A stretch of DNA of 64,000 nucleotides from IMG/VR virus record IMGVR_UViG_2623620505_000001; one strand, written 5' to 3'. The stretch is from a virus (taxonomy: Duplodnaviria; Heunggongvirae; Uroviricota; Caudoviricetes). The translations under genes were made by a program, and so were the position numbers. The notes below the pieces were generated by a model. The model was not told where the DNA came from. It did no database searches and was given only the letters and a program-made list of their open reading frames with translations. Shown piece after piece: positions 5,725 through 30,222 of this stretch (positions within the stretch are counted from its first letter, which is position 1; every line of letters starts with the position of its first letter).

Positions 5725-7314
5725 ATGTCTCAATATTCAATTCAACAGTCATTAGGTAATGCATCCGGCGTCGCGGTTAGCCCGATCAATGCCGATGCGA
5801 CGTTATCTACCGGTGTTGCATTAAATAGCAGCTTATGGGCTGGTATTGGCGTATTTGCGCGTGGCAAGCCGTTTACTGTTCTTGCGGTTACTGAGTCCAA
5901 TTACGAAGATGTTCTCGGCGAACCGCTGAAGCCGTCTTCCGGCTCACAGTTCGAACCAATTCGCCATGTATACGAAGCTATTCAGCAAACGTCTGGTTAT
6001 GTTGTTCGCGCTGTTCCGGATGATGCGAAGTTCCCGATTATTATGTTCGATGAATCAGGCGAACCGGCTTACAGTGCGTTGCCATACGGTTCTGAAATTG
6101 AACTTGATAGTGGCGAAGCCTTTGCTATCTACGTTGATGATGGTGATCCGTGTATTTCACCTACCCGTGAGTTAACCATCGAAACGGCAACAGCGGACAG
6201 CGCGGGTAATGAACGCTTCCTCTTAAAACTGACCCAGACGACTTCGCTCGGCGTGGTAACGACCCTGGAGACACACACTGTGTCTTTGGCGGAAGAAGCG
6301 AAAGATGACATGGGCCGCTTGTGTTATCTGCCTACGGCTCTGGAAGCCCGTTCTAAATATCTGCGCGCGGTTGTTAATGAAGAGCTGATTTCGACAGCGA
6401 AAGTAACAAACAAAAAATCGTTGGCGTTCACTGGCGGTACCAACGGCGATCAGTCGAAAATCTCAACCGCTGCGTACCTGCGTGCGGTTAAAGTGCTGAA
6501 TAATGCGCCGTACATGTACACCGCTGTTCTTGGCCTGGGCTGCTATGACAATGCGGCTATCACCGCATTAGGTAAAATCTGTGCAGATCGCCTGATTGAT
6601 GGCTTCTTTGATGTCAAACCGACATTGACGTACACGGAAGCGATCTCTGCTGTTGAAGATACCGGTTTACTTGGTACCGATTATGTAAGCTGTGCTGTCT
6701 ATCACTACCCGTTCTCCTGCAAAGACAAATGGACCCAATCCCGTGTGGTCTTTGGTCTGTCTGGCGTGGCGTATGCGGCGAAAGCTCGTGGCGTCAAGAA
6801 AAACTCTGATGTCGGCGGTTGGCATTACTCACCGGCTGGTGAAGAACGTGCCGTCATTGCTCGTGCGTCAATTCAACCGCTGTATCCGGAAGATACCCCG
6901 GACGAAGAAGCAATGGTCAAGGGCCGTCTCAATAAAGTATCTGTTGGCACCTCTGGCCAGATGATCATCGACGATGCTTTAACTTGCTGCACGCAGGATA
7001 ACTATCTGCACTTCCAGCACGTCCCATCCCTGATGAATGCAATCAGCCGTTTCTTTGTCCAGTTAGCCCGACAGATGAAGCATAGCCCGGACGGTATTAC
7101 TGCGGCTGGCCTGACTAAAGGGATGACCAAACTTTTAGATCGCTTTGTCGCCTCCGGCGCTCTGGTGGCTCCTCGTGATCCTGATGCTGACGGTACAGAA
7201 CCGTATGTGCTGAAAGTTACGCAGGCGGAATTCGATAAATGGGAAGTAGTCTGGGCCTGCTGCCCGACTGGCGTAGCCCGTCGTATCCAGGGCGTACCGC
7301 TGCTTATTAAGTAA
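5725..7314 (+). CDS. late structural protein, possibly tail sheath (position of P1 gene 22)
   Basis: 529 aa ORF co-oriented in late operon; assignment by position and size only. Confidence 0.4.
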   Translation: MSQYSIQQSLGNASGVAVSPINADATLSTGVALNSSLWAGIGVFARGKPFTVLAVTESNYEDVLGEPLKPSSGSQFEPIRHVYEAIQQTSGYVVRAVPDDAKFPIIMFDESGEPAYSALPYGSEIELDSGEAFAIYVDDGDPCISPTRELTIETATADSAGNERFLLKLTQTTSLGVVTTLETHTVSLAEEAKDDMGRLCYLPTALEARSKYLRAVVNEELISTAKVTNKKSLAFTGGTNGDQSKISTAAYLRAVKVLNNAPYMYTAVLGLGCYDNAAITALGKICADRLIDGFFDVKPTLTYTEAISAVEDTGLLGTDYVSCAVYHYPFSCKDKWTQSRVVFGLSGVAYAAKARGVKKNSDVGGWHYSPAGEERAVIARASIQPLYPEDTPDEEAMVKGRLNKVSVGTSGQMIIDDALTCCTQDNYLHFQHVPSLMNAISRFFVQLARQMKHSPDGITAAGLTKGMTKLLDRFVASGALVAPRDPDADGTEPYVLKVTQAEFDKWEVVWACCPTGVARRIQGVPLLIK

Positions 7315-7323
7315 GGGAATACA

Positions 7324-8139
7324 ATGAGCAAAAACTTTTTTCAATCCGGGGCATTTTTGGGGAATGGACTGTCTCGTTTCGCTTTGAACTCTGATCCTGT
7401 GCAGCTGATGGAGTCTGCCCGAGCAAGCGCTGAACCGCCAACAGATCCGGTTATTAATAATAATCCGGAACCGGCGGCACAGACTAACGATAACGTTCCA
7501 TCTGCCCAGGCTCCTGAGCAAATCCTGGAAGGGAAAGACGGTAAAGAATGGACCGTCGAACAGGCGCACCAGATGATTCTGGAAGCTGCAAATCGAAGTG
7601 CTATGCAAAATGCGTTGAGTGATGCGGCCGACGCCGTTTTCGCCTGGGCTGATAGCGGTGATCTGACTTTCGACTCCCTTGATGGTTTCGTTCAGGCTAT
7701 CGCTGGTATCTCTGATGACGACGACTCCGAAGTTACAGAAGAACAGGACGATGCCTATAACGAAGCATGGGCAAATGTTGCTGACTTCCTCGCAGCATGC
7801 GGTGTTGATGATGACCTGATCGAAGCACTGGCTGACGATGAAGACGACGACGCAGCTGCTGATGTTGGTGCCTCTATCGCTGGTTTAGATAGCGACGACC
7901 GCGACGAACTGGAAGCGGCGTTTGTTGTTGCTGGCACTTCTGATGAAATGCTGACTGAAGCATTTAAGAAGGTTGTTCGTAACGGTGAGATCAAACTCAT
8001 CCGTAAACGCCTGCGTAAAAAACGTCTGACTGCGGCTCAAAAATCGGCGCTGAAAAAAGCGCGTCGAAAAGCCCAGACCGGCGCGGCAAAACTTGCCCGC
8101 AAAAAGTCAATGAAACTGCGCCGTAAGCGCCTTGGCTAA
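7324..8139 (+). CDS. late protein with strongly acidic core and Lys/Arg-rich C-terminal tail
   Basis: 271 aa; acidic D/E-rich segment (DDDSEVTEEQDD, DDEDDDAAAD) followed by KLIRKRLRKKRL...KLRRKRLG basic tail. Confidence 0.5.
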   Translation: MSKNFFQSGAFLGNGLSRFALNSDPVQLMESARASAEPPTDPVINNNPEPAAQTNDNVPSAQAPEQILEGKDGKEWTVEQAHQMILEAANRSAMQNALSDAADAVFAWADSGDLTFDSLDGFVQAIAGISDDDDSEVTEEQDDAYNEAWANVADFLAACGVDDDLIEALADDEDDDAAADVGASIAGLDSDDRDELEAAFVVAGTSDEMLTEAFKKVVRNGEIKLIRKRLRKKRLTAAQKSALKKARRKAQTGAAKLARKKSMKLRRKRLG

Positions 8140-9393: not shown

Positions 9394-9549
9394 TTACCTT
9401 TCAGATTCGTAGGCTGTGAAGACAGTGACCTCCGTCTGGCCGGTTCGGATTCGTACCTCGCAGAGGTCTTTCCTCGTTACCAGTGCCGTCACAATGACGG
9501 TTAAACAGATGACGATCAGAGCGATTAATATCGCTTTTTGCTGCTTCAT
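9394..9549 (-). CDS. hok: Hok/Gef-family type I toxin (51 aa membrane peptide); not in supplied ORF track (below length cut-off)
   Basis: Translated by hand: MKQQKAILIALIVICLTVIVTALVTRKDLCEVRIRTGQTEVTVFTAYESER; C-terminal LTRK.LCE.R.R....EV..F.AYES matches Hok family; AGGAG RBS 9 nt upstream. Confidence 0.75.
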   Translation of the reverse strand: MKQQKAILIALIVICLTVIVTALVTRKDLCEVRIRTGQTEVTVFTAYESER

Positions 9550-9607
9550 AGCCTGCTTCTCCTTGACCTTTTGGTCGGTAAGAGGCTAATCTACGTATGC
9601 TAAGCAT
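9401..9607 (-). CDS. mok: mok-like overlapping reading frame (translational coupler of hok)
   Basis: 68-aa ORF overlapping hok in another frame, as in hok/mok/sok loci. Inference from arrangement. Confidence 0.4.
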   Translation of the reverse strand: MLSIRRLASYRPKGQGEAGYEAAKSDINRSDRHLFNRHCDGTGNEERPLRGTNPNRPDGGHCLHSLRI

Positions 9608-9730
9608 AGATATTGCCTCAGATTAATGTTAAGCGTCTTGCAGGACGCGTAATGTTATCTGGGGCTTTCTTCTATCTGCTTTTCGGGTAATGCCTGAAGC
9701 AGATAGCCTCAAGCACCCGCAACGATTGTA

Positions 9731-13129: not shown

Positions 13130-13330
13130 TCACTAACAGGTTTAACAACCTGCTACCCGCTGCTAAACAGGTGGCAGGACGTGACGGGGTTAGCAGACTG
13201 GCGTTAGTGAAACCAGCAGGCCGAAGCCTCCCCATCACGCCCCACCATAATTTGGGCGTAACGCGGTTTTACGGACACAAAAATACCGCAATATCGGATA
13301 TCTGCGGTTGTCCGCACTAACATTCAGGCT
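13130..13330 (-). ncRNA. c4: region expected to encode c4-like antisense repressor RNA (exact ends not determined)
   Basis: Known: in P1 c4 RNA lies between the operator-controlled promoter and icd. Seen: operator-like site at 13434-13450 and repeated CTGCTAAC/TAGCAG complementary elements. Boundaries are inference. Confidence 0.3.
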
Positions 13331-13433
13331 GCTAAACCCGGTCGCAGAATTTGCTACGACGGCGGAACTATAAGCCTGAACGATTAAAAGGTCAATATGA
13401 TGCGAAAAGATAGCATTCGCGACTTAAAAATAC

Positions 13434-22432: not shown

Positions 22433-23268
22433 TGCAGCGTTCCTGGTTTAATAACCGGCTTACATCAGCTAAGCAAAAGTCATTACTTTATAAATCATTG
22501 GCTGATTTGGTTCAGTCAATGATGGACACCTTTGTTGACCCATGGTTGGAGCGAATTACCAACCGGAAGTCTATTTTCTCCATGAGCAAGGAGGATCTGG
22601 AGACTAGGACAAATGAACTTGGCCAGTTTTTTACTATCAGAACGTCGAATTCATCTTCCGTTCCGATGTTGTTACAACAGCGGTTTGATGAGATCCATTT
22701 TAAGGGTACTGAACGCCCTATAAACCAGACAATTTATCGCGAATTTAACGGTATATCGGTTTTATGGGATCCAATATATGCTCCGGTGGACTTTGAACGT
22801 CATCCCTATGGCACGGTCCTGATTCCAGAAAGCACACTGGAAACCACCGGCGGCACATTCGGCGAGATGTTTCTGACTTCCAGAGGAATGATCAGTATTC
22901 CCATAAACGACCTGGCCCGGACAATGGGTATTACTGGAACGATAGATCAGTCCGCAATTACAGAAGAAATTCTCAGAAAGTTTAATCAGTTCGTAAAGCC
23001 TCTACTGCCACTGCATATAGTGTTTGATGGGCTTACGCTCTATTTGTCGGTTGTTGTAAATGAACAGGCCGACATGATCACTTTGAATGAGATTTCTGAT
23101 ACCGAAAAAGCATTCTGCTGGTTTGAAACTTCGGATACAACTTCGCTTACTGAAGTTACGTCGATTAACGCCCCGATCACTGCAACGCCGGGCGGCACTA
23201 TTGTGAAAGCAACGCCTACGTTTGATCGCACCCGCGCAGATGATTTGCTGTTGGATAGCGATGCGTGA
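22429..23268 (+). CDS. baseplate/tail-fibre attachment protein (position of P1 gene 16)
   Basis: 279 aa, overlapping start/stop with preceding gene. Confidence 0.45.
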   Translation: MMQRSWFNNRLTSAKQKSLLYKSLADLVQSMMDTFVDPWLERITNRKSIFSMSKEDLETRTNELGQFFTIRTSNSSSVPMLLQQRFDEIHFKGTERPINQTIYREFNGISVLWDPIYAPVDFERHPYGTVLIPESTLETTGGTFGEMFLTSRGMISIPINDLARTMGITGTIDQSAITEEILRKFNQFVKPLLPLHIVFDGLTLYLSVVVNEQADMITLNEISDTEKAFCWFETSDTTSLTEVTSINAPITATPGGTIVKATPTFDRTRADDLLLDSDA

Positions 23269-23297
23269 CAATCACCCCGTCCGCAGGGCGGGGTGAC

Positions 23298-23316
23298 AAG
23301 TTACTTATCTTACAAT
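23298..23316 (+). promoter_or_regulatory. putative late promoter for R-S tail-fibre operon
   Basis: AAGTTACTT atct TACAAT, same element/-10 architecture as at 3888. Confidence 0.45.
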
Positions 23317-23346
23317 GAGGCTTCACAACATTGATTAGGGAAAATC

Positions 23347-23781
23347 ATGTCTGACGTCTCAACAAACCTCTATAAGAGTCAGTTGTTGGACTATTACTAT
23401 CAGCGGCGCGCTGAATCGTCCATTAACAAAGGCTCTCGATTTTTAATCAGCAAGGCCGTTTTCGGTACCAGTTCACTGGTTACTAAGAAAGGAGATGGCA
23501 CTTATGAGATTGGAGAACTGCCAAAGGCTTTCGATCTGGCAGAACTGACCAGTCAATTTTGCACCATCAACCTCGTCCCAACCTACTCAGGCGGGATAAT
23601 TACTGTCCGAATGGACCTTGATCAAAGTCAGTTGCAGGAAGGGAAAAACTACCCATTCAACACTCTGGTTGTTCTGGATAACGAGAATAAGCCAATCGCC
23701 ATTATTTGTGTCCAGGAAGACTCGCTGTATGTGGGCAAAACATATACCGCAGTTATGGCCATAAACTCGACTACAGCATAA
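23347..23781 (+). CDS. R: tail-fibre operon protein R
   Basis: 144 aa immediately upstream of S; by position. Confidence 0.5.
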   Translation: MSDVSTNLYKSQLLDYYYQRRAESSINKGSRFLISKAVFGTSSLVTKKGDGTYEIGELPKAFDLAELTSQFCTINLVPTYSGGIITVRMDLDQSQLQEGKNYPFNTLVVLDNENKPIAIICVQEDSLYVGKTYTAVMAINSTTA

Positions 23782-23792
23782 GGATATGCTTG

Positions 23793-25811
23793 ATGAATGA
23801 CGTTACAGTTGTTACATCGGTTACTTACCCATCACCCGAGTCGTTGGCTCTGGTGGCTGATGTGCAATACCACGAACCATATCTGTCAGCCGCTCTAAAC
23901 CGAAAATTCAGGGGAATTGTTGACCCGGGATTTTATGCTGGTTTCTTGCCTAAGCCTGGCGGTGGGATGAACCTGTTAATCACCTCAGTGGATGGAGATA
24001 AAACCGCTGGCGCGGCGTCAGTGGATATTGGTGAATTCTACCAGGTAACTATTCAGCATCGTAAGGATATCTCTCTTGCACTTAACGCAGGCAAGAAATA
24101 TGCAATTGTGCTGAAGGGAAGATACCTTCTTGGAGAAGATACCTATCAGGTGAATACCGCGTCACATATTCATGCAGCTGAATTTGTTGCCAGAACCTAT
24201 ACCGATTCATATCAGTTAGGTGATGGGGAACTGCTGGTTTGTACGGTGAATATCCCTGCTGGCGTATCTACCATTACTCAAGAGATGATTGATACATCCG
24301 AGCGTATCAACCGCACGATCGGCATTGATATTTCAGACTCTGTAACCAGTACCAGAAGTGATGTTGCTGCGAGTTCGCTGGCAGTTAAAAAAGCCTACGA
24401 TCTGGCGAAAAGCAAGTATACGGCGCAGGATGCAAGCACAACGCAAAAGGGATTAGTTCAGCTCAGTAGTGCCACTAACAGTACGTCCGAAGTGCTGGCC
24501 GCCACACCGAAAGCTGTCAAGGCTGCATATGACCTGGCTAACGGGAAGTATACAGCCCAGGATGCAACCACGACACAAAAAGGGATAGTTCAGCTCAGTA
24601 GCGACACCAACAGCACTTCTGAAACATTAGCTGCAACGCCAAAAGCGGTTAAAGCTGCATACGATCTAGCAGCCGGAAAGGCACCATCCAGTCATACACA
24701 TCCCTGGAATCAGATCACTGGTGTGCCAACAGCTTCATTGACAGCGAAAGGCATCACTCAGCTCAGTAGTGCCACTAACAGCACGTCTGAAGTGCTGGCC
24801 GCCACACCGAAAGCTGTCAAGGCTGCATATGACCTGGCTAACGGGAAGTATACAGCCCAGGATGCAACCACGACACAAAAAGGGATAGTTCAGCTCAGTA
24901 GCGACACCAACAGCACTTCTGAAACATTAGCTGCAACGCCAAAAGCGGTTAAAGCTGCATACGATCTAGCAGCCGGAAAGGCACCATCCAGTCATACACA
25001 TCCCTGGAATCAGATCACTGGTGTGCCAACAGCTTCATTGACAGCGAAAGGCATCACTCAGCTCAGTAGTGCCACTAACAGCACGTCCGAAGTGCTGGCC
25101 GCTACACCGAAAGCTGTCAAGGCTGCATATGATTTGGCTAATGGAAAGCAAGCGGCAGACGCTACGCTCACTGCTCTAGCGGCACTAGCTACCGCAGCAG
25201 ATAAACTCCCTTATTTCACAGGGGTTGATCGTGCCGCGTTAACTGCACTGACAAGTGTTGGACGTGCAATTCTTAGTAAGCCCAGTATTCAGAGCGTTCT
25301 TAATTACCTTGGTTTAGGGGAAGGCTCGGCGCTGCCCGTTGGTGTACCTATTCCATGGCCCTCAGCCACACCGCCAACGGGGTGGCTGAAATGCAATGGT
25401 GCAGCATTTTCTTCTGAAAAGTACCCAAATCTGGCAAAGGTTTACCCAACGTTAAAATTACCTGATTTACGCGGTGAGTTTATCCGTGGCTGGGATGATG
25501 GGCGAGGGATTGACTCTGGTCGCTCTATTTTAAGCGAGCAAGGATATGCAACGGAGGATCATGCTCACGGATTACCGTCAAAATCAACCGTAGCAACTGA
25601 CCGCTCAATTAATTTCTACTTTGACGAGGCATGGGCTACTAGTGGTAATACGGGAGTTATCAGATGGGGGAACACAAACGATGCAGGATTGCCAGCCCCT
25701 AATTATGGAACTTTTAAAACATATAAACAGTCCGTAGCTAATTTAGGTACTGCTGGCTTAGAAACCCGCCCTCGTAATATTGCATTTAATTATATTGTGA
25801 GGGCGGATTAA
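23793..25811 (+). CDS. S: tail fibre protein S (constant part Sc fused to currently expressed variable C-terminus)
   Basis: Track ORF 23706..25811 trimmed to ATG 23793 with AAGGA RBS. Repeated LAATPKAVKAAYDLA tail-fibre repeats; C-terminus ...ETRPRNIAFNYIVRAD shared with the silent cassettes. Confidence 0.85.
   Translation: MNDVTVVTSVTYPSPESLALVADVQYHEPYLSAALNRKFRGIVDPGFYAGFLPKPGGGMNLLITSVDGDKTAGAASVDIGEFYQVTIQHRKDISLALNAGKKYAIVLKGRYLLGEDTYQVNTASHIHAAEFVARTYTDSYQLGDGELLVCTVNIPAGVSTITQEMIDTSERINRTIGIDISDSVTSTRSDVAASSLAVKKAYDLAKSKYTAQDASTTQKGLVQLSSATNSTSEVLAATPKAVKAAYDLANGKYTAQDATTTQKGIVQLSSDTNSTSETLAATPKAVKAAYDLAAGKAPSSHTHPWNQITGVPTASLTAKGITQLSSATNSTSEVLAATPKAVKAAYDLANGKYTAQDATTTQKGIVQLSSDTNSTSETLAATPKAVKAAYDLAAGKAPSSHTHPWNQITGVPTASLTAKGITQLSSATNSTSEVLAATPKAVKAAYDLANGKQAADATLTALAALATAADKLPYFTGVDRAALTALTSVGRAILSKPSIQSVLNYLGLGEGSALPVGVPIPWPSATPPTGWLKCNGAAFSSEKYPNLAKVYPTLKLPDLRGEFIRGWDDGRGIDSGRSILSEQGYATEDHAHGLPSKSTVATDRSINFYFDEAWATSGNTGVIRWGNTNDAGLPAPNYGTFKTYKQSVANLGTAGLETRPRNIAFNYIVRAD
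24461..25140 (+). repeat. 300-bp tandem duplication inside S (2.3 copies, near-perfect)
   Basis: Seen: 24541-24780 identical to 24841-25080; unit encodes 100 aa of tail-fibre repeats. Confidence 0.9.
25297..25322. other. mix/cix-type 26-bp inversion crossover site 1 (at Sc/Sv junction, opposite orientation to sites 2-6)
   Basis: Reverse complement TTCCCCTAAACC AA GGTAATTAAGAA; resembles known gix/hix half-site pattern TTCC..TAAACC. Confidence 0.75.
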
Positions 25812-25816
25812 TTATA

Positions 25817-26428
25817 TCAACTGGCTGTAGAAAGTTGTTTTTCAGGCCAGTTGAGATCTGGTGCCGTGGTTAAATCCATCGCGTTCAGCTCGTCTATATA
25901 ATCTAGCACGGAGTTAAGCTGCGTGGTTTCTGCCTGCGTCAACTTCCGTCCAGCCCGTAATTTCAACTGAATCAGACTAATGGAATCCATCGCAGTATCA
26001 ATCAATGACTGACGTTTTGTTTCTGCTGCCTCTACAGCTGCACTATGTTGAGCCTCAGTATCAACCACCCATTTCTCTCCATCCCATTTGTCGTATGGTG
26101 TTAGCGGGGCGATAGTGGTTGTATTTTCCGGATAGTCACCCAACACCGTGATTTCTTCGGGATTCCCAGTGTCAATGCTATAGACAGTTTCGCCACGATG
26201 ATCTGGCACATACTCCCATGAACTTAAATCCTCTGAACGGAGAATCGCATAACCTGCTTTATGTGAGCCTGGAGCATCCAAACAAGAATTTGCCGGAATA
26301 CCAACGCCAACAGCAAGATATTCAGTTGATGCAGAAATATATTCCCGATTACCACCATCATAGTTATAAACGATAATGTTTCCTGCCTGTATGGCTATAA
26401 GTTCGCTATTTAATATCGCATTATCCAT
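25817..26428 (-). CDS. U: tail fibre assembly protein (U/Tfa family), inverted relative to S
   Basis: 203 aa; C-terminus ...LNAMDLTTAPDLNWPE resembles Tfa C-terminal motif; start overlaps stop of cassette B. Confidence 0.8.
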   Translation of the reverse strand: MDNAILNSELIAIQAGNIIVYNYDGGNREYISASTEYLAVGVGIPANSCLDAPGSHKAGYAILRSEDLSSWEYVPDHRGETVYSIDTGNPEEITVLGDYPENTTTIAPLTPYDKWDGEKWVVDTEAQHSAAVEAAETKRQSLIDTAMDSISLIQLKLRAGRKLTQAETTQLNSVLDYIDELNAMDLTTAPDLNWPEKQLSTAS

Positions 26429-26886
26429 TATGCTGCTCTCACAATATAATTGAAGGCAATGTTACGTGGGCGGGTTTCATTCCCCCCAGATAACTCCGTT
26501 CTGTATTGACTGGTAAATTTACCATTAATCGCTCCTTGCCGGACGGCGTTATCTGTCGACAACAGACTATCCCCCCCTCTGTCATTTGGCACCAATACCG
26601 TGTTATCCCACGCGTCCCATGACCGAATATTATGATAATGACTTCCTGTTAACCACCCCTGTATGCTTAAGATGACCCTTCCCGCATCCACACCTCGCCC
26701 ATCATCCCAGCCACGGATAAACTCACCGCGTAAATCAGGTAATTTTAACGTTGGGTAAACCTTTGCCAGATTTGGGTACTTTTCAGAAGAAAATGCTGCA
26801 CCATTGCATTTTAGCCAGCCCGTTGGTGGTGTTTCTAAGGGCCACGGAACGGGCACACCAACAGGCAGTGCAGAGCCTTCCCCCAA
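26428..26886 (-). other. silent alternative S C-terminal cassette B (promoterless; followed by U)
   Basis: Encodes GEGSALPVGVPVPWP...ETRPRNIAFNYIVRAA with unique central region; 5' end is mix site 2. Confidence 0.8.
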
Positions 26887-26903
26887 ACCAACGTTTTTAT
26901 GTG
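26878..26903. other. mix site 2
   Basis: TTCCCCCAAACCAACGTTTTTATGTG. Confidence 0.75.
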
Positions 26904-27370
26904 GCCCTTACAATGTAATTAAAAGCAACGTTGCGGGGGCGCATTGATATCCATGCCCCGGTAAAATTATCCTCTGCCGTCCTTTGAGTGCCTGTTATGG
27001 AGTTATCTGATGATGCTAGAACATAATCGCTATTATCTCCTGCTTTAGGATTAGCAGGGTTTCCAACAGTTATAACAGAATCAGCAGTAGCATAAGCGAT
27101 ACCTACTTTGACATTAGTAGTCAGATCGACACCGTAATAATCCTGCAAAGCTGTACGAATAAATGTTGCAGTCTGACCACTTAGCAATGAACGCCCTGTA
27201 TCAATCCCTCTCGAATCATCCCAACCACGGATAAACTCACCGCGTAAATCAGGTAATTTTAACGTTGGGTAAACCTTTGCCAGATTTGGGTACTTTTCAG
27301 AAGAAAATGCTGCTCCGTTACATTTCAGCCACCCCGTTGGTGGTGTGGCGGAGGGCCACGGAACAGGCAC
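26897..27370 (-). other. silent alternative S C-terminal cassette C (reading frame continues to mix site 3 at 27392)
   Basis: 157-aa ORF with conserved N/C ends; identical to cassette at 28376-28849. Confidence 0.8.
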
Positions 27371-27391
27371 ACCAACGGGCAGCGCCGAGCC

Positions 27392-27417
27392 TTCCCCTAA
27401 ACCAACGTTTTTATGCC
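27392..27417. other. mix site 3
   Basis: TTCCCCTAAACCAACGTTTTTATGCC; overlaps stop codon of next cassette. Confidence 0.75.
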
Positions 27418-27878
27418 GCCCTTACGATGTAATTAAATGCAATATTACGGGGGCGGGTTTCAGATGCTGTACGAACTGAGCGAGAGGCGTCGAATGTCCA
27501 GTTATAAGAGCCATAACCCTCAATAATTTCCGTTTCCTTTAGGCCTGTAGATAATACTTGACCATGTTGACTAAATGGCCCTGAACTAAGTACATCTCTA
27601 AAAAGCTGAGTACGCCCGAAAGAACCAACAATATTCTGAATTGCATCATTCTGTGCAGATAATAAATTACGGCCAGAGTCAATCCCCCGCCCGTCATCCC
27701 AGCCGCGAATAAATTCGCCCCGTAGATCCGGCAATTTATTAGTAGGGTAAACCTTTGCCAGATTTGGGTACTTTTCAGAAGAAAATGCTGCACCATTGCA
27801 TTTCAGCCACCCCGTTGGCGGTGTGGCTGAGGGCCATGGAACAGGTACACCAACGGGCAGTGCCGAGCCTTCCCCCAA
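27411..27878 (-). other. silent alternative S C-terminal cassette D
   Basis: 155-aa ORF, conserved ends, distinct core. Confidence 0.8.
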
Positions 27879-27895
27879 ACCAACGTTTTTATGCC
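27870..27895. other. mix site 4
   Basis: TTCCCCCAAACCAACGTTTTTATGCC. Confidence 0.75.
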
Positions 27896-28365
27896 GCCCT
27901 TACGATGTAATTAAATGCGATATTTCGTGGACGGGTTTCACTCCCGCCAGTATTACCAATACTCCCTCGAGAATGAAGTGTCGGTGATGGAATCAAATTC
28001 CCTCCTGTATTTGAGGCATCAAGCCCCCGTCCTTGTGTGTATGTTTTTTTGAAAATTGTCGCCAGCTCCCATTCATCTTTTGTGTCGTAACCATCATTGG
28101 CTACAACAATATGTCGGTGCTTTTCCAGCATTCCTGTCTGAATGCTCAATAAAGCACGTCCCGCATCCACCCCGCGCCCATCATCCCAGCCGCGAATAAA
28201 TTCTCCCCGTAAATCCGGTAATTTATTGGTGGGGTAGGCCTTTGCCAGTTTGGGATACATTTCAGAAGAAAATGCTGCTCCGTTACATTTCAGCCACCCC
28301 GTTGGCGGTGTTTCTAAGGGCCACGGAACGGGCACGCCAACGGGCAATGCTGAGCCTTCCCCCAA
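27889..28365 (-). other. silent alternative S C-terminal cassette E
   Basis: 158-aa ORF, conserved ends, distinct core. Confidence 0.8.
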
Positions 28366-28382
28366 ACCAACGTTTTTATGTG
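28357..28382. other. mix site 5
   Basis: TTCCCCCAAACCAACGTTTTTATGTG. Confidence 0.75.
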
Positions 28383-28849
28383 GCCCTTACAATGTAATTA
28401 AAAGCAACGTTGCGGGGGCGCATTGATATCCATGCCCCGGTAAAATTATCCTCTGCCGTCCTTTGAGTGCCTGTTATGGAGTTATCTGATGATGCTAGAA
28501 CATAATCGCTATTATCTCCTGCTTTAGGATTAGCAGGGTTTCCAACAGTTATAACAGAATCAGCAGTAGCATAAGCGATACCTACTTTGACATTAGTAGT
28601 CAGATCGACACCGTAATAATCCTGCAAAGCTGTACGAATAAATGTTGCAGTCTGACCACTTAGCAATGAACGCCCTGTATCAATCCCTCTCGAATCATCC
28701 CAACCACGGATAAACTCACCGCGTAAATCAGGTAATTTTAACGTTGGGTAAACCTTTGCCAGATTTGGGTACTTTTCAGAAGAAAATGCTGCTCCGTTAC
28801 ATTTCAGCCACCCCGTTGGTGGTGTGGCGGAGGGCCACGGAACAGGCAC
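28376..28849 (-). other. silent cassette C-prime (exact duplicate of cassette C)
   Basis: Predicted protein identical to 26897..27370; DNA identical over about 538 bp. Confidence 0.8.
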
Positions 28850-28870
28850 ACCAACGGGCAGCGCCGAGCC

Positions 28871-28896
28871 TTCCCCTAAACCAACGTTTTAGTCTT
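28871..28896. other. mix site 6 (outermost, next to invertase gene)
   Basis: TTCCCCTAAACCAACGTTTTAGTCTT. Confidence 0.7.
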
Positions 28897-28950
28897 AATC
28901 CCTACCTATACCAACGATGTATTTTTAACTAAACAAAGAGGTTGTTTTTC

Positions 28951-29523
28951 ATGCAAATTGGCTACATTCGTGTGTCAACAAATGACCAAAACACAGATTT
29001 ACAAAGAAATGCACTGAATTGCGCAGGATGTGAACTGATTTTTGAAGATAAAATAAGCGGAACAAAGTCAGCCAGACCAGGCTTGAAAAAGCTGCTCAGA
29101 ACGTTATCAGAAGGAGATACGCTGGTTGTCTGGAAGCTGGATAGGCTTGGCAGAAGTATGAAACACCTTATCACGCTTATAGAGGAGTTGCGGGAAAAAG
29201 GTGTTAATTTCCGTAGTCTGACAGACAGTATTGACACATCAACACCCATGGGGCGTTTCTTTTTTCATGTCATGGGTGCTTTAGCAGAAATGGAACGTGA
29301 ATTAATTGTTGAGAGAACACTGGCCGGACTGGCAGCTGCACGCGAACAGGGACGCATTGGCGGACGTCGCCCGAAGTTGACAAAAGAACAACATGAGCAA
29401 ATAGCGAGGTTGATCGAAAATGGCTACAGCAGGAAACAGTTGGCAATTATTTACGATATCGGTGTATCGACGATTTATCGTTATCATCCTGTAGAGAAGC
29501 GCCAAACTCAATCTGAGCTGTAA
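28951..29523 (+). CDS. cin: serine DNA invertase (Cin/Min/Gin/Hin family)
   Basis: Track ORF 28942..29523 trimmed to ATG 28951 (AAAGAGG RBS); N-terminal catalytic motif IGYIRVSTNDQ, C-terminal HTH; adjacent to the inversion sites. Confidence 0.9.
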   Translation: MQIGYIRVSTNDQNTDLQRNALNCAGCELIFEDKISGTKSARPGLKKLLRTLSEGDTLVVWKLDRLGRSMKHLITLIEELREKGVNFRSLTDSIDTSTPMGRFFFHVMGALAEMERELIVERTLAGLAAAREQGRIGGRRPKLTKEQHEQIARLIENGYSRKQLAIIYDIGVSTIYRYHPVEKRQTQSEL

Positions 29524-29958
29524 TTCTAATGCCGCGTCGGTGTAATTTATCTTGATAGAATAGGTACATTTATCGCGCGGCACATCAATTCGATGTATCT
29601 AGCGCCTGCTGACCGCTAATGAAAACTGTTCTCGAAATGTTGTCCCTAGTCCGAGACTAGGGTATCACCTCTGGAAAGCATACGCAGAACCTTTTTTAAC
29701 CCAGGGTGCCCAGTTTTTTTGCTGCTCGCCTTATTCGCAAAAATTAGCTCACATCCTGCGCTTTCAAGTGCTTTTCACTGCATAGCTGTGTTTTGTTCAT
29801 TTGTCTATATGCATACATAGCCTATTAACATATTTTCTGCCCACTATCGTTATTTATTGCAAGCTACAGGTTTTAATTAACAAAACCAGTGTGTGTGGAA
29901 ATCACAAAGTGCATACCGTTCTCAAATGTTGTTCAACTTACTGTTGTATAGGTAAAAA

Positions 29959-30222
29959 ATGACATTTTATGTACATATCGTGATGTTATCCCTTCTTGGT
30001 GGGGTGTATTCGTATTTGAGTGGGCTATGTGAAAACCGTTACGAGTCTTCATGCAAGAAATTGCTGGCCGAATGTATTTCCGCCGTACTTGCTGGCTTTA
30101 TTGGCATGTATCTCGCGGAATATAAGGACATGAATGAAAGCCTTCAGAGCTGCATGGTTCTTATTTTCAGCGCCAATAGCAGGCTTATTATTGAAGGTTC
30201 CAAAAGTCGGTTGAATAGGTAA
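29959..30222 (+). CDS. small hydrophobic protein (possible lysis-associated)
   Basis: 87 aa with two hydrophobic segments, in AT-rich region between invertase and lysis genes. Confidence 0.35.
   Translation: MTFYVHIVMLSLLGGVYSYLSGLCENRYESSCKKLLAECISAVLAGFIGMYLAEYKDMNESLQSCMVLIFSANSRLIIEGSKSRLNR

What the first reader, a model, noticed from the sequence alone, without database searches (positions are those of the whole stretch)
25297..28896. Six-site Min/Cin-type multiple inversion system with five silent tail-fibre C-terminal cassettes
Six 26-bp gix-like sites (TTCCCC.AAACC AA ...) are present: one inside S in one orientation and five in the opposite orientation, each at the 5' end of a promoterless cassette encoding a different S C-terminus. 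All cassettes share the junction peptide GLGEGSALPVGVP and the C-terminal ETRPRNIAFNYIVRA. This is more complex than the two-cassette P1 C-segment and resembles the p15B Min system. Cassette stop codons overlap the next crossover site, so the array is extremely compact.
Basis: partly seen in the sequence, partly recalled or inferred. Interest (0 to 1): 0.7.

Follow-up and report, generated by a model that had tools for sequence, protein, structure and literature searches.

The report
p15B-type Min tail-fibre inversion array
This is the Min multiple-inversion switch first described in 1990 on plasmid p15B, here on a P1-like plasmid prophage of E. coli 1303, which shuffles alternative tail-fibre tips onto one gene; it is real and well preserved but already known.

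Summary
Six 26-bp crossover sites lie at 25297-28896, one in gene S and five in the opposite orientation (0.04 expected by chance). Each abuts an in-frame, start-less tail-fibre C-terminal cassette.

The interpretation (Min/Cin type, resembling p15B) is right but understated. The window is CP009168.1, plasmid p1303_95 of E. coli 1303. Its sites use the published p15B mix half-sites, with one base different. The layout matches what I recall of p15B: one 1.58-kb module plus four small one-cassette segments, 3,574 bp in all. The invertase region, with a truncated second invertase gene (psi-win) and the holin genes, keeps one constant offset to p15B record X62121.

Corrections:
- Two silent cassettes are an exact copy (26873-27411 = 28352-28890), so there are five distinct tips, not six.
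- That cassette type ends SMRPRNVAFNYIVRAT, not the quoted motif.
- The array holds a single tail-fibre assembly gene, antisense to S in this isomer.

Related plasmids carry the same cassettes in other orders, always obeying the orientation rule of an inversion-only system. Two 97,393-bp plasmids differ in just this way. Inversion in this strain is untested, and the short-read assembly makes the recorded order and the duplication uncertain.

Verdict: already known; low interest.

The parts
23298..23316 (+). P1-type late promoter LPs upstream of R and S, the only identified promoter for the fibre operon
   Evidence: 36 nt spanning it (window 23289-23324) are identical to the region of the annotated LPs of P1 AF234172.
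23347..23781 (+). Gene R (tail-fibre protein R, 144 aa)
   Evidence: ORF. Pfam PF26881 Phage_P1_tail_fiber_R on the called gene.
23793..25310 (+). Constant part of S (Sc, 506 aa), ending at the core TT of site 1
   Evidence: Six Phage_fiber_2 repeats. Window 22767-24481 is 96.6% identical to P1 Sc/R.
24458..25148 (+). 300-bp tandem repeat, 2.3 copies, inside Sc
   Evidence: 97% matches.
25297..25322 (-). Crossover site 1 (Sc|A): TTCCCCTAAACC AA GGTAATTAAGAA
   Evidence: and direct reading of the sequence (my first extraction was offset by 2 nt). It differs by one base from p15B mixQ''R'.
25311..25811 (+). Cassette A (166 aa), currently fused to Sc and expressed as the tip of S (672 aa)
   Evidence: Collar domain. 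Tail-fibre PHROGs at E 2.5e-71. Similar to T4 gp37 and short-tail-fibre chains.
25817..26428 (-). Tail-fibre assembly gene (203 aa). Its start overlaps the stop of cassette B. It is antisense to S in this isomer.
   Evidence: Caudo_TAP at E 3e-30. Exact match to the Swiss-Prot entry named TFAB_ECOLX. TAATG overlap.
26428..26889 (-). Silent cassette B (153 aa), the other end of the large module
26878..26903 (+). Crossover site 2 (B|C): TTCCCCCAAACC AA CGTTTTTATGTG
   Evidence: Identical to p15B mixN''O'.
26897..27403 (-). Silent cassette C, copy 1 (168 aa, ends SMRPRNVAFNYIVRAT)
27392..27417 (+). Crossover site 3 (C|D): TTCCCCTAAACC AA CGTTTTTATGCC
   Evidence: Identical to p15B mixMr''N', mixO''P' and mixP''Q'.
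27411..27881 (-). Silent cassette D (156 aa)
27870..27895 (+). Crossover site 4 (D|E)
27889..28368 (-). Silent cassette E (159 aa)
28357..28382 (+). Crossover site 5 (E|C)
28376..28882 (-). Silent cassette C, copy 2, an exact duplicate of copy 1
   Evidence: 539-bp exact identity. 0 of 512 mismatches from core to core.
28871..28896 (+). Crossover site 6 (C|invertase flank): TTCCCCTAAACC AA CGTTTTAGTCTT
   Evidence: The right half is identical to the p15B L' half-site.
28951..29523 (+). min-type serine DNA invertase (190 aa, Ser9)
   Evidence: Resolvase plus HTH_7 domains. Gin structures at E 4e-92. 74% identical to P1 Cin. The exact sequence is on at least 1000 public contigs.
28969..29040 (+). 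Presumed recombinational enhancer inside the 5' end of min
   Evidence: 58 of 72 nt identical to the annotated cin enhancer of P1. Window 28975-29045 corresponds to p15B nt 6463-6533.
29655..29831 (-). psi-win: truncated cin-like invertase 5' fragment with in-frame stops
   Evidence: tblastn over aa 1-59, 61% identical to min. About 85% nt identity to P1 lydA-lydC-Pcin-cin 5'. Corresponds to p15B nt 7147-7408.

Best explanation
The region is a p15B-type Min multiple DNA-inversion system on the P1-like plasmid prophage p1303_95 of E. coli 1303.

How it works (inferred by homology):
- A late promoter (LPs) drives R and S. S consists of a constant part (Sc, 506 aa) that ends in a 26-bp crossover site.
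- Downstream lie five invertible segments bounded by six such sites. One is a 1.58-kb module carrying two convergent tips (A and B) and one assembly gene. The other four each carry one start-less tip cassette (C, D, E, C).
- The adjacent serine invertase pairs the site in S with any site of opposite orientation. It cuts at the AA/TT core and inverts the DNA between them, probably helped by a Fis-bound enhancer in its own 5' end.
- Each inversion places a different cassette in frame behind Sc. A clonal lysogen population would therefore make phage with different receptor-binding tips.

With five labelled segments the reachable states number 240. With C duplicated, 120 are distinguishable, encoding five different S proteins.

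Shown here: the sites, their orientation, in-frame fusion, the type of invertase, collinearity with p15B, and permuted arrays in relatives. Inferred: that inversion occurs in this strain, the enhancer function, and the host-range consequences.
For: - Six sites, against 0.04 expected by chance.
- Half-sites equal the published mix half-sites apart from one base.
- Segment sizes from site start to site start are 1581, 514, 478, 487 and 514, a total of 3,574 bp.
- All fusions to Sc are in frame.
- The invertase has Resolvase and HTH_7 domains. Its best solved relatives are Gin (E 4e-92), and it is 74% identical to Cin.
- min, psi-win, lydC and lydA map to X62121 with one constant offset of 22,512. 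Their identities to P1 are the same as the P1 record states for p15B (83, 89, 84 and 99-100%).
- The LPs promoter is identical to that of P1.
- A simulation of inversions gives 240 states. This equals the 240 isomers reported for p15B (PMC2481393).
- In the eleven related loci typed, every cassette on the Sc side of the A/tfa/B module points one way, and every cassette on the other side points the other way.
- Two 97,393-bp plasmids hold the same nine cassettes in different orders.
- One assembly is broken at the array, with alternative junctions on separate contigs.
Against: - No reads or experiments exist for this plasmid, so activity here is inferred.
- Only five distinct cassettes are present, against the six I recall for p15B.
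- The assembly gene is antisense to the S operon in the recorded isomer, and no separate promoter was detected.
- The predicted alternative S proteins are not in the public protein collection as exact sequences. This is uninformative rather than negative.
- I could not align X62121 directly, and the original p15B papers are not held.
Confidence: 0.9

Rival explanations
1. The system is genuine, but the recorded order of segments, and in particular the second identical copy of cassette C, is an assembly chimera of coexisting isomers. The true plasmid may carry a sixth, different cassette where the copy sits.
For: - The genome was assembled from 454 GS20 and 101-bp Illumina reads, with gaps closed by PCR and Sanger sequencing (PMC4384141).
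- Segments of about 500 bp that share about 230 bp of 80-90% identical sequence cannot be ordered by such reads in a mixed population.
- The duplicate is exactly one core-to-core segment with 0 of 512 mismatches. In two other plasmids that carry C twice, the copies differ at 5 positions.
- p15B has one site with the ATGTG half and three with ATGCC. The window has two of each.
- PMC4134206 warns of artefactual duplications of this kind.
Against: - Carrying C twice is real in at least two other lineages, where the copies have diverged.
- The number of segments (five) and the total length fit an intact array.
- The finishing involved PCR across the region.
Confidence: 0.35
2. The array is a frozen relic. 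The sites and cassettes persist but no longer recombine in this plasmid.
For: - There is no direct evidence of inversion in strain 1303.
- p15B-like elements are often defective prophages, and some P1-like plasmids have truncated invertases or arrays (PMC6906374; locus L006).
Against: - The invertase is full length and identical to a protein seen on at least 1000 contigs.
- All six sites and all cassette reading frames are intact.
- Close relatives with an invertase gene of the same length and position (573 bp in every record, 100% identical in L010) show permuted arrays.
Confidence: 0.07
3. It is a P1 Cin-type two-state C-segment switch, or an R64-type shufflon run by a tyrosine recombinase.
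For: - The backbone is P1-like.
- The compact many-cassette layout looks superficially like a shufflon.
Against: - There are six sites, not two. There is one assembly gene, not paired U and U'.
- The invertase is oriented opposite to cin, and the cin-like gene is only a truncated remnant.
- The recombinase is a serine enzyme (Resolvase plus HTH_7), not a tyrosine one.
Confidence: 0.01

Closest known systems
Min multiple-inversion system of plasmid p15B (E. coli 15T-; Sandmeier, Iida, Arber and colleagues 1990-1992; GenBank X62121)
   Same: - Six 26-bp sites with the same half-site sequences.
- One large module plus four small one-cassette segments, about 3.5 kb in all.
- min lies next to the array in the same orientation as S, followed by a truncated invertase gene and lydC/lydA at identical spacing.
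- Sc is repetitive.
- The backbone is P1-related.
- 240 reachable isomers.
   Different: - One base differs in the Sc-side half-site (GGTAATTAAGAA against GGTAATCAAGAA).
- The window is about 258 nt shorter between p15B nt 1712 and 6463, probably in the Sc repeats (inferred from the offsets).
- There are five distinct cassettes with one duplicated, instead of six different ones (the p15B figure is from my memory of the 1991 abstract).
- The host strain is different.
Cin / C-segment of phages P1 and P7
   Same: - Same position in the genome, between S and the lyd genes, and the same late promoter.
- Sc is about 96.6% identical at its 5' end.
- The recombinase is a Din-family serine invertase, 74% identical.
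- The enhancer region is 81% identical.
   Different: - P1 has two cix sites, one 4.2-kb segment and two Sv/U pairs, with cin in the opposite orientation.
- Here there are six sites, five segments and one assembly gene, and the cin-like gene survives only as psi-win.
Gin/G segment of Mu, Pin/e14 and two-site switches next to Min-like invertases in other Enterobacterales
   Same: - Homologous invertases, 64-84% identical.
- The same 14-nt site motif (left half plus AA core, up to 2 mismatches) is found in these loci.
- The cargo is a tail-fibre tip.
   Different: In the loci sampled from other species, a typical arrangement is one inverted pair of sites 1.3-2 kb apart. Multi-site arrays were seen only with the 100% identical invertase.
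R64 shufflon (Rci) and the Rin shufflon of Bifidobacterium prophages
   Same: The logic is the same: many start-less C-terminal cassettes are shuffled onto one constant gene by inversion (PMC2481393, PMC6109161).
   Different: Those systems use tyrosine recombinases and short asymmetric sites. This one uses a serine invertase and 26-bp quasi-palindromic sites.

Membership tests
Din-family serine DNA-invertase systems (Hin/Gin/Cin/Pin/Min) | A recombinase of about 190 aa with an N-terminal resolvase catalytic domain (active-site Ser about position 9-10) and a C-terminal HTH | tested here: met
   PF00239 at E 2e-51 and PF02796 at E 3e-15. The motif YIRVSTNDQ places Ser at position 9. Gin structures 3uj3 and 4m6f match at E about 1e-92 over residues 1-185.
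Din-family serine DNA-invertase systems (Hin/Gin/Cin/Pin/Min) | 26-bp crossover sites: two 12-bp imperfectly inverted halves around a 2-bp core that is identical in the partner sites | tested here: met
   All six sites read TTCCCC[C/T]AAACC-AA-12 nt. [quoted passage not shown]
Din-family serine DNA-invertase systems (Hin/Gin/Cin/Pin/Min) | Recombining sites in inverted orientation on one molecule | tested here: met
   Site 1 is on the - strand and sites 2-6 are on the + strand.
Din-family serine DNA-invertase systems (Hin/Gin/Cin/Pin/Min) | A Fis-dependent recombinational enhancer in the 5' part of the invertase gene | tested here: inconclusive
   58 of 72 nt are identical to the annotated cin enhancer. 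One Fis-like 15-mer is conserved in min, cin and psi-win. Coding constraint confounds this comparison, and function is untested.
Din-family serine DNA-invertase systems (Hin/Gin/Cin/Pin/Min) | Demonstrated inversion of the segment | not testable with these tools
   No reads are available for strain 1303. Indirect support comes from relatives with the same cassettes in permuted order and from a split assembly.
p15B Min multiple-inversion system | Six mix sites with the published sequences | tested here: met
   Every half-site type in the window occurs among the p15B mix sites of PMC3241671 Table 3. The one exception is a single C-to-T change in the Sc-side half.
p15B Min multiple-inversion system | One large segment with two cassette-bearing ends, plus four small single-cassette segments, about 3.5 kb in all | tested here: met
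   Segments measure 1581, 514, 478, 487 and 514 nt, 3,574 bp from core to core. The site naming Ml''/Mr'', N, O, P, Q implies the same design. The 3.5-kb figure is from my memory of the abstracts.
p15B Min multiple-inversion system | min adjacent to the array, followed by the truncated invertase gene psi-win and the lyd genes | tested here: met
   psi-win lies at 29655-29831. A constant offset of 22,512 to X62121 holds for four landmarks, with identities to P1 matching the record's notes.
p15B Min multiple-inversion system | Six different variable 3' parts of S | tested here: not met
   Only five are distinct, because cassette C is present twice and identically. This may reflect the assembly. 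The p15B figure is from my memory of the 1991 abstract.
p15B Min multiple-inversion system | A P1-related plasmid-prophage backbone | tested here: met
   The window is CP009168.1, described as a 'bacteriophage P1-like plasmid'. It contains P1 genes R, S, 16, lydA, lydB and darA, and the C4 RNA.
P1/P7 Cin C-segment | Two cix sites flanking one segment that holds the pairs Sv-U and Sv'-U' | tested here: not met
   There are six sites, five segments and a single assembly gene.
R64-type shufflon | A tyrosine recombinase (Rci) acting on sfx sites | tested here: not met
   The only recombinase next to the array is a serine recombinase.

The most novel reading that the evidence does not exclude
The exact, site-to-site duplication of cassette C may be real. 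Arrays in sister plasmids hold from 2 to 17 cassettes, some with repeated segments. Together these could mean that arrays grow, shrink and exchange whole segments. The route would be Min-mediated or homologous recombination between sister or dimer copies in different isomeric states, so the invertase system would shape its own repertoire over time.

A linked point is that the single assembly gene is sense to the S operon in only half of the isomers. Half of the states may therefore yield fibres made without it. As far as I know, this cost or regulatory layer has not been examined.
Probability: 0.25. Interest if true: 0.4.

Novelty: already known. Interest (0 to 1): 0.18.

Why it matters
The array explains how one P1-like plasmid prophage can present several receptor-binding tips, and so reach different hosts, from one gene.

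In practice these arrays break or scramble assemblies and produce strings of 'phage tail protein' fragment annotations. Related sequence was found in 628 plasmid records in the collection searched. The recorded order in any single record should be treated as one isomer, or as a possible chimera.

Nothing here changes the accepted picture of Din-family inversion systems.

Tried and rejected
- **Original p15B papers.** I tried to read them (PubMed 1945872 and 2405394, PMC53420), the P1 genome paper (PMC523184) and a review that I believed to be PMC4384473. None is held. p15B facts therefore come from secondary sources, from the P1 record's notes, or from memory where marked.
- **Predicted fusion proteins.** An exact look-up of the four predicted alternative S proteins (Sc+B, Sc+C, Sc+D, Sc+E) in the 15-billion-protein collection found none. 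This is uninformative, because this Sc variant is unique to the record.
- **Promoters and terminators.** The pattern scan of 23200-30000 found nothing above the shuffled expectation. It gives no evidence for a separate promoter for the silent cassettes or the assembly gene.
- **Searching for the same record.** The plasmid and E. coli collections gave no full-length identical hit. The source was identified through the exact S protein instead.
- **Rejected readings.** A P1 Cin two-site switch and an R64-type shufflon were both rejected.
- **Cassette sizes of p15B.** I tried to deduce them from the coordinates in PMC3241671 Table 4. The stated random flank of 0-50 nt makes this too loose, so I did not use it.


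Full report
**1. What is in the sequence**

The window carries six exact matches to CCTTCCCCYAAACCAA. One is on the - strand at 25309-25324. Five are on the + strand at 26876, 27390, 27868, 28355 and 28869. Dinucleotide-preserving shuffles give 0.04 matches on average, and none of 100 shuffles reaches six.

Read as 26-bp units, the sites are 25297-25322, 26878-26903, 27392-27417, 27870-27895, 28357-28382 and 28871-28896. Each has a conserved half TTCCCC[C/T]AAACC, a core AA and a variable half. The outer edges are exactly the coordinates given in the finding.

The conserved half is the start of a reading frame that begins GLGEGSALPVGVP. At site 1 this frame continues gene S (23793-25811, 672 aa). 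At the other five sites it is a start-less cassette on the - strand. I label the tips A (expressed), then B, C, D, E and C.

- Each tip has a phage tail Collar domain followed by a variable part.
- Each matches tail-fibre families in PHROGs.
- Each resembles T4 gp37 and short-tail-fibre chains among solved structures.

Joining Sc to each silent cassette at the core keeps the frame and gives proteins of 659, 674, 662 and 665 aa.

**2. Corrections to the observation**

- Cassettes 2 and 5 are not different. 26873-27411 equals 28352-28890 over 539 bp, and the core-to-core segment shows 0 of 512 mismatches. There are therefore five distinct tips.
- That tip type ends SMRPRNVAFNYIVRAT. Only A, B, D and E carry ETRPRNIAFNYIVRA.
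- The stop codon lies inside the next site (positions 20-22) for the four small cassettes only.
- Cassette B is followed, with a TAATG overlap, by a tail-fibre assembly gene (25817-26428, - strand; Caudo_TAP, E 3e-30). Cassette A ends 5 nt from that gene's stop.

The segment between sites 1 and 2 is thus a 1.58-kb module: A, then the assembly gene and B converging on it. The other four segments (514, 478, 487 and 514 nt) hold one cassette each.

**3. The recombinase and its surroundings**

- 54 nt beyond site 6 begins a 190-aa serine recombinase (28951-29523). It has Resolvase and HTH_7 domains and Ser9.
- Its best solved relatives are the Gin invertase structures (E 4e-92). It is 74% identical to P1 Cin.
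- Its nucleotides 19-90 are 81% identical to the enhancer annotated in P1 cin.
- Downstream, on the - strand at 29655-29831, lies a truncated cin-like 5' fragment with in-frame stop codons.
- P1's late promoter LPs lies within a 36-nt stretch that is identical between the window and P1, upstream of R and S (window 23298-23316).
- No excess of promoter-like sites occurs inside the array.

**4. Where the window comes from**

The exact S protein occurs on one public contig, CP009168.1 (94,959 bp). Window coordinates equal record coordinates. This is p1303_95, described as a 'bacteriophage P1-like plasmid' of the bovine mastitis strain E. coli 1303. It was assembled from 454 and 101-bp Illumina reads, with gaps closed by PCR and Sanger sequencing (PMC4384141).

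**5. Comparison with p15B**

The six mix sites of p15B are tabulated in PMC3241671.

- The window uses the same half-sites: CGTTTTAGTCTT next to the invertase, CGTTTTTATGCC and CGTTTTTATGTG inside the array, and TTCCCC[C/T]AAACC at every cassette start.
- The Sc-side half differs by one base (GGTAATTAAGAA against GGTAATCAAGAA).
- The site names (Ml'', Mr'', N, O, P, Q, with flanks L and R) imply one two-ended segment plus four small ones. That is the design found here.

The annotated P1 record AF234172 quotes p15B (X62121) coordinates for several homologous stretches. Four of them map to the window with one constant offset of 22,512:

- the min enhancer, 6463-6533;
- psi-win, 7147-7408;
- lydC, 7483-7638;
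- lydA, from 7728.

The window's identities to P1 over these stretches are 83.1%, 88.6% with one gap, 84.4% and 100%. These reproduce the values the record gives for p15B.

Upstream, the offset is about 22,770. The window is therefore about 258 nt shorter somewhere between, most simply in the repeats of Sc (inference).

I recall from the abstract of Sandmeier et al. 1991 a 3.5-kb region, six sites, six different 3' parts, and a truncated invertase gene psi-win beside min. That paper is not held, so those details rest on memory.

**6. How it should work**

I modelled each junction as a site whose orientation is set by which side carries the cassette start. Inversion was allowed between any two oppositely oriented sites. 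From the recorded arrangement, 240 states are reachable. This is the number cited for p15B (PMC2481393). With C duplicated, 120 states are distinguishable, and five S proteins can be made.

The model predicts a strict rule. Cassettes between Sc and the large module must all point with S. Those beyond the module must all point against it.

**7. Test of that rule in relatives**

- At least eleven tip types (A-K) occur, in arrays of 2 to 17 cassettes.
- The rule holds in every locus.
- The large module occurs in both orientations relative to Sc.
- Two plasmids of identical length (97,393 bp) and about 99.3% identical flanks carry the same nine cassettes in different orders. p160070-MCR reads I H A|B D E C F G. 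pMCR_SCKP-LL83 reads G H D F C E A|B I.
- One assembly (strain 2022N21-074-17) is broken at the array and holds a 2.6-kb extra contig with alternative neighbours for the same module. This is the signature of coexisting isomers described for other invertible tail-fibre regions (PMC4134206).

These results show that this family of arrays rearranges by inversion in nature. They do not show it for strain 1303.

**8. How unusual it is**

Related sequence was found in 628 plasmid records and 1,402 E. coli genome records, many annotated with strings of 'phage tail protein' fragments.

Among one genome per species, invertases 64-84% identical to this one commonly sit next to a simple inverted pair of sites. 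The only multi-site case carried the 100% identical invertase.

The multi-site design is therefore special within the family, but it is the design already described for p15B.

**9. Open points**

(a) *The duplicate.* Two other plasmids also carry C twice, but with 5 differences in 512 nt. A second C copy can therefore be real. Here the copies are identical and the assembly method could not order such segments in a mixed culture. An assembly chimera, or a collapse of two near-identical copies, remains plausible at about one in three.

(b) *The assembly gene.* It is sense to the S operon in only half of the states and is antisense in the recorded one. No other promoter was detected. Whether fibres with tips other than B need it is unknown to me.

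(c) *The enhancer.* Its assignment rests on similarity within a coding region.

**10. Verdict**

The object is the known p15B Min system in a sister plasmid, so novelty is nil and interest is low.

Noticed in passing
window 29655-29831 (- strand): A truncated cin-like invertase 5' fragment with in-frame stop codons lies next to min. It has the position and orientation that cin has in P1. This suggests that the Min block replaced the C segment and most of cin.
   Followed up: yes
window 24458-25148: A 300-bp unit is repeated 2.3 times (97-99% identical) inside the constant part of S. The window appears to be about 258 nt shorter than p15B in this part, so repeat number probably varies between plasmids.
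   Followed up: partly
window 25817-26428 (- strand): The array holds a single tail-fibre assembly gene, translationally coupled to cassette B. It is antisense to the S operon in the recorded isomer and in half of all reachable isomers. How the other tips are served is unexplained.
   Followed up: partly
L007 (NZ_CP135665.1, 79572-94060): An array of 17 sites holds many exactly repeated segments: E four times, J three times, and D and I twice each. This is either a real expansion or a long-read assembly artefact of a mixed population.
   Followed up: partly
L003 and L004 (assembly GCF_052122915.1): The plasmid assembly is broken at the array. A separate 2,595-bp contig carries the same module with different neighbours, which indicates that isomers coexisted in the sequenced culture.
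   Followed up: partly
L006 (NZ_CP065023.1, 1367-14068): An array reduced to the A/tfa/B module with two sites. IS26 lies where Sc should be, so this relative has lost the constant part of S.
   Followed up: no
window 9544-9718 (- strand): An Rfam match to sok antitoxin RNA (114 bits), implying a hok/sok-type addiction module on the plasmid.
   Followed up: no
window 13167-13252 and 13321-13373 (- strand): C4 antisense RNA and its a1/b1 targets (Rfam, 70 and 55.5 bits). This is the P1 immI immunity region. No tRNA genes were found anywhere in the window.
   Followed up: no
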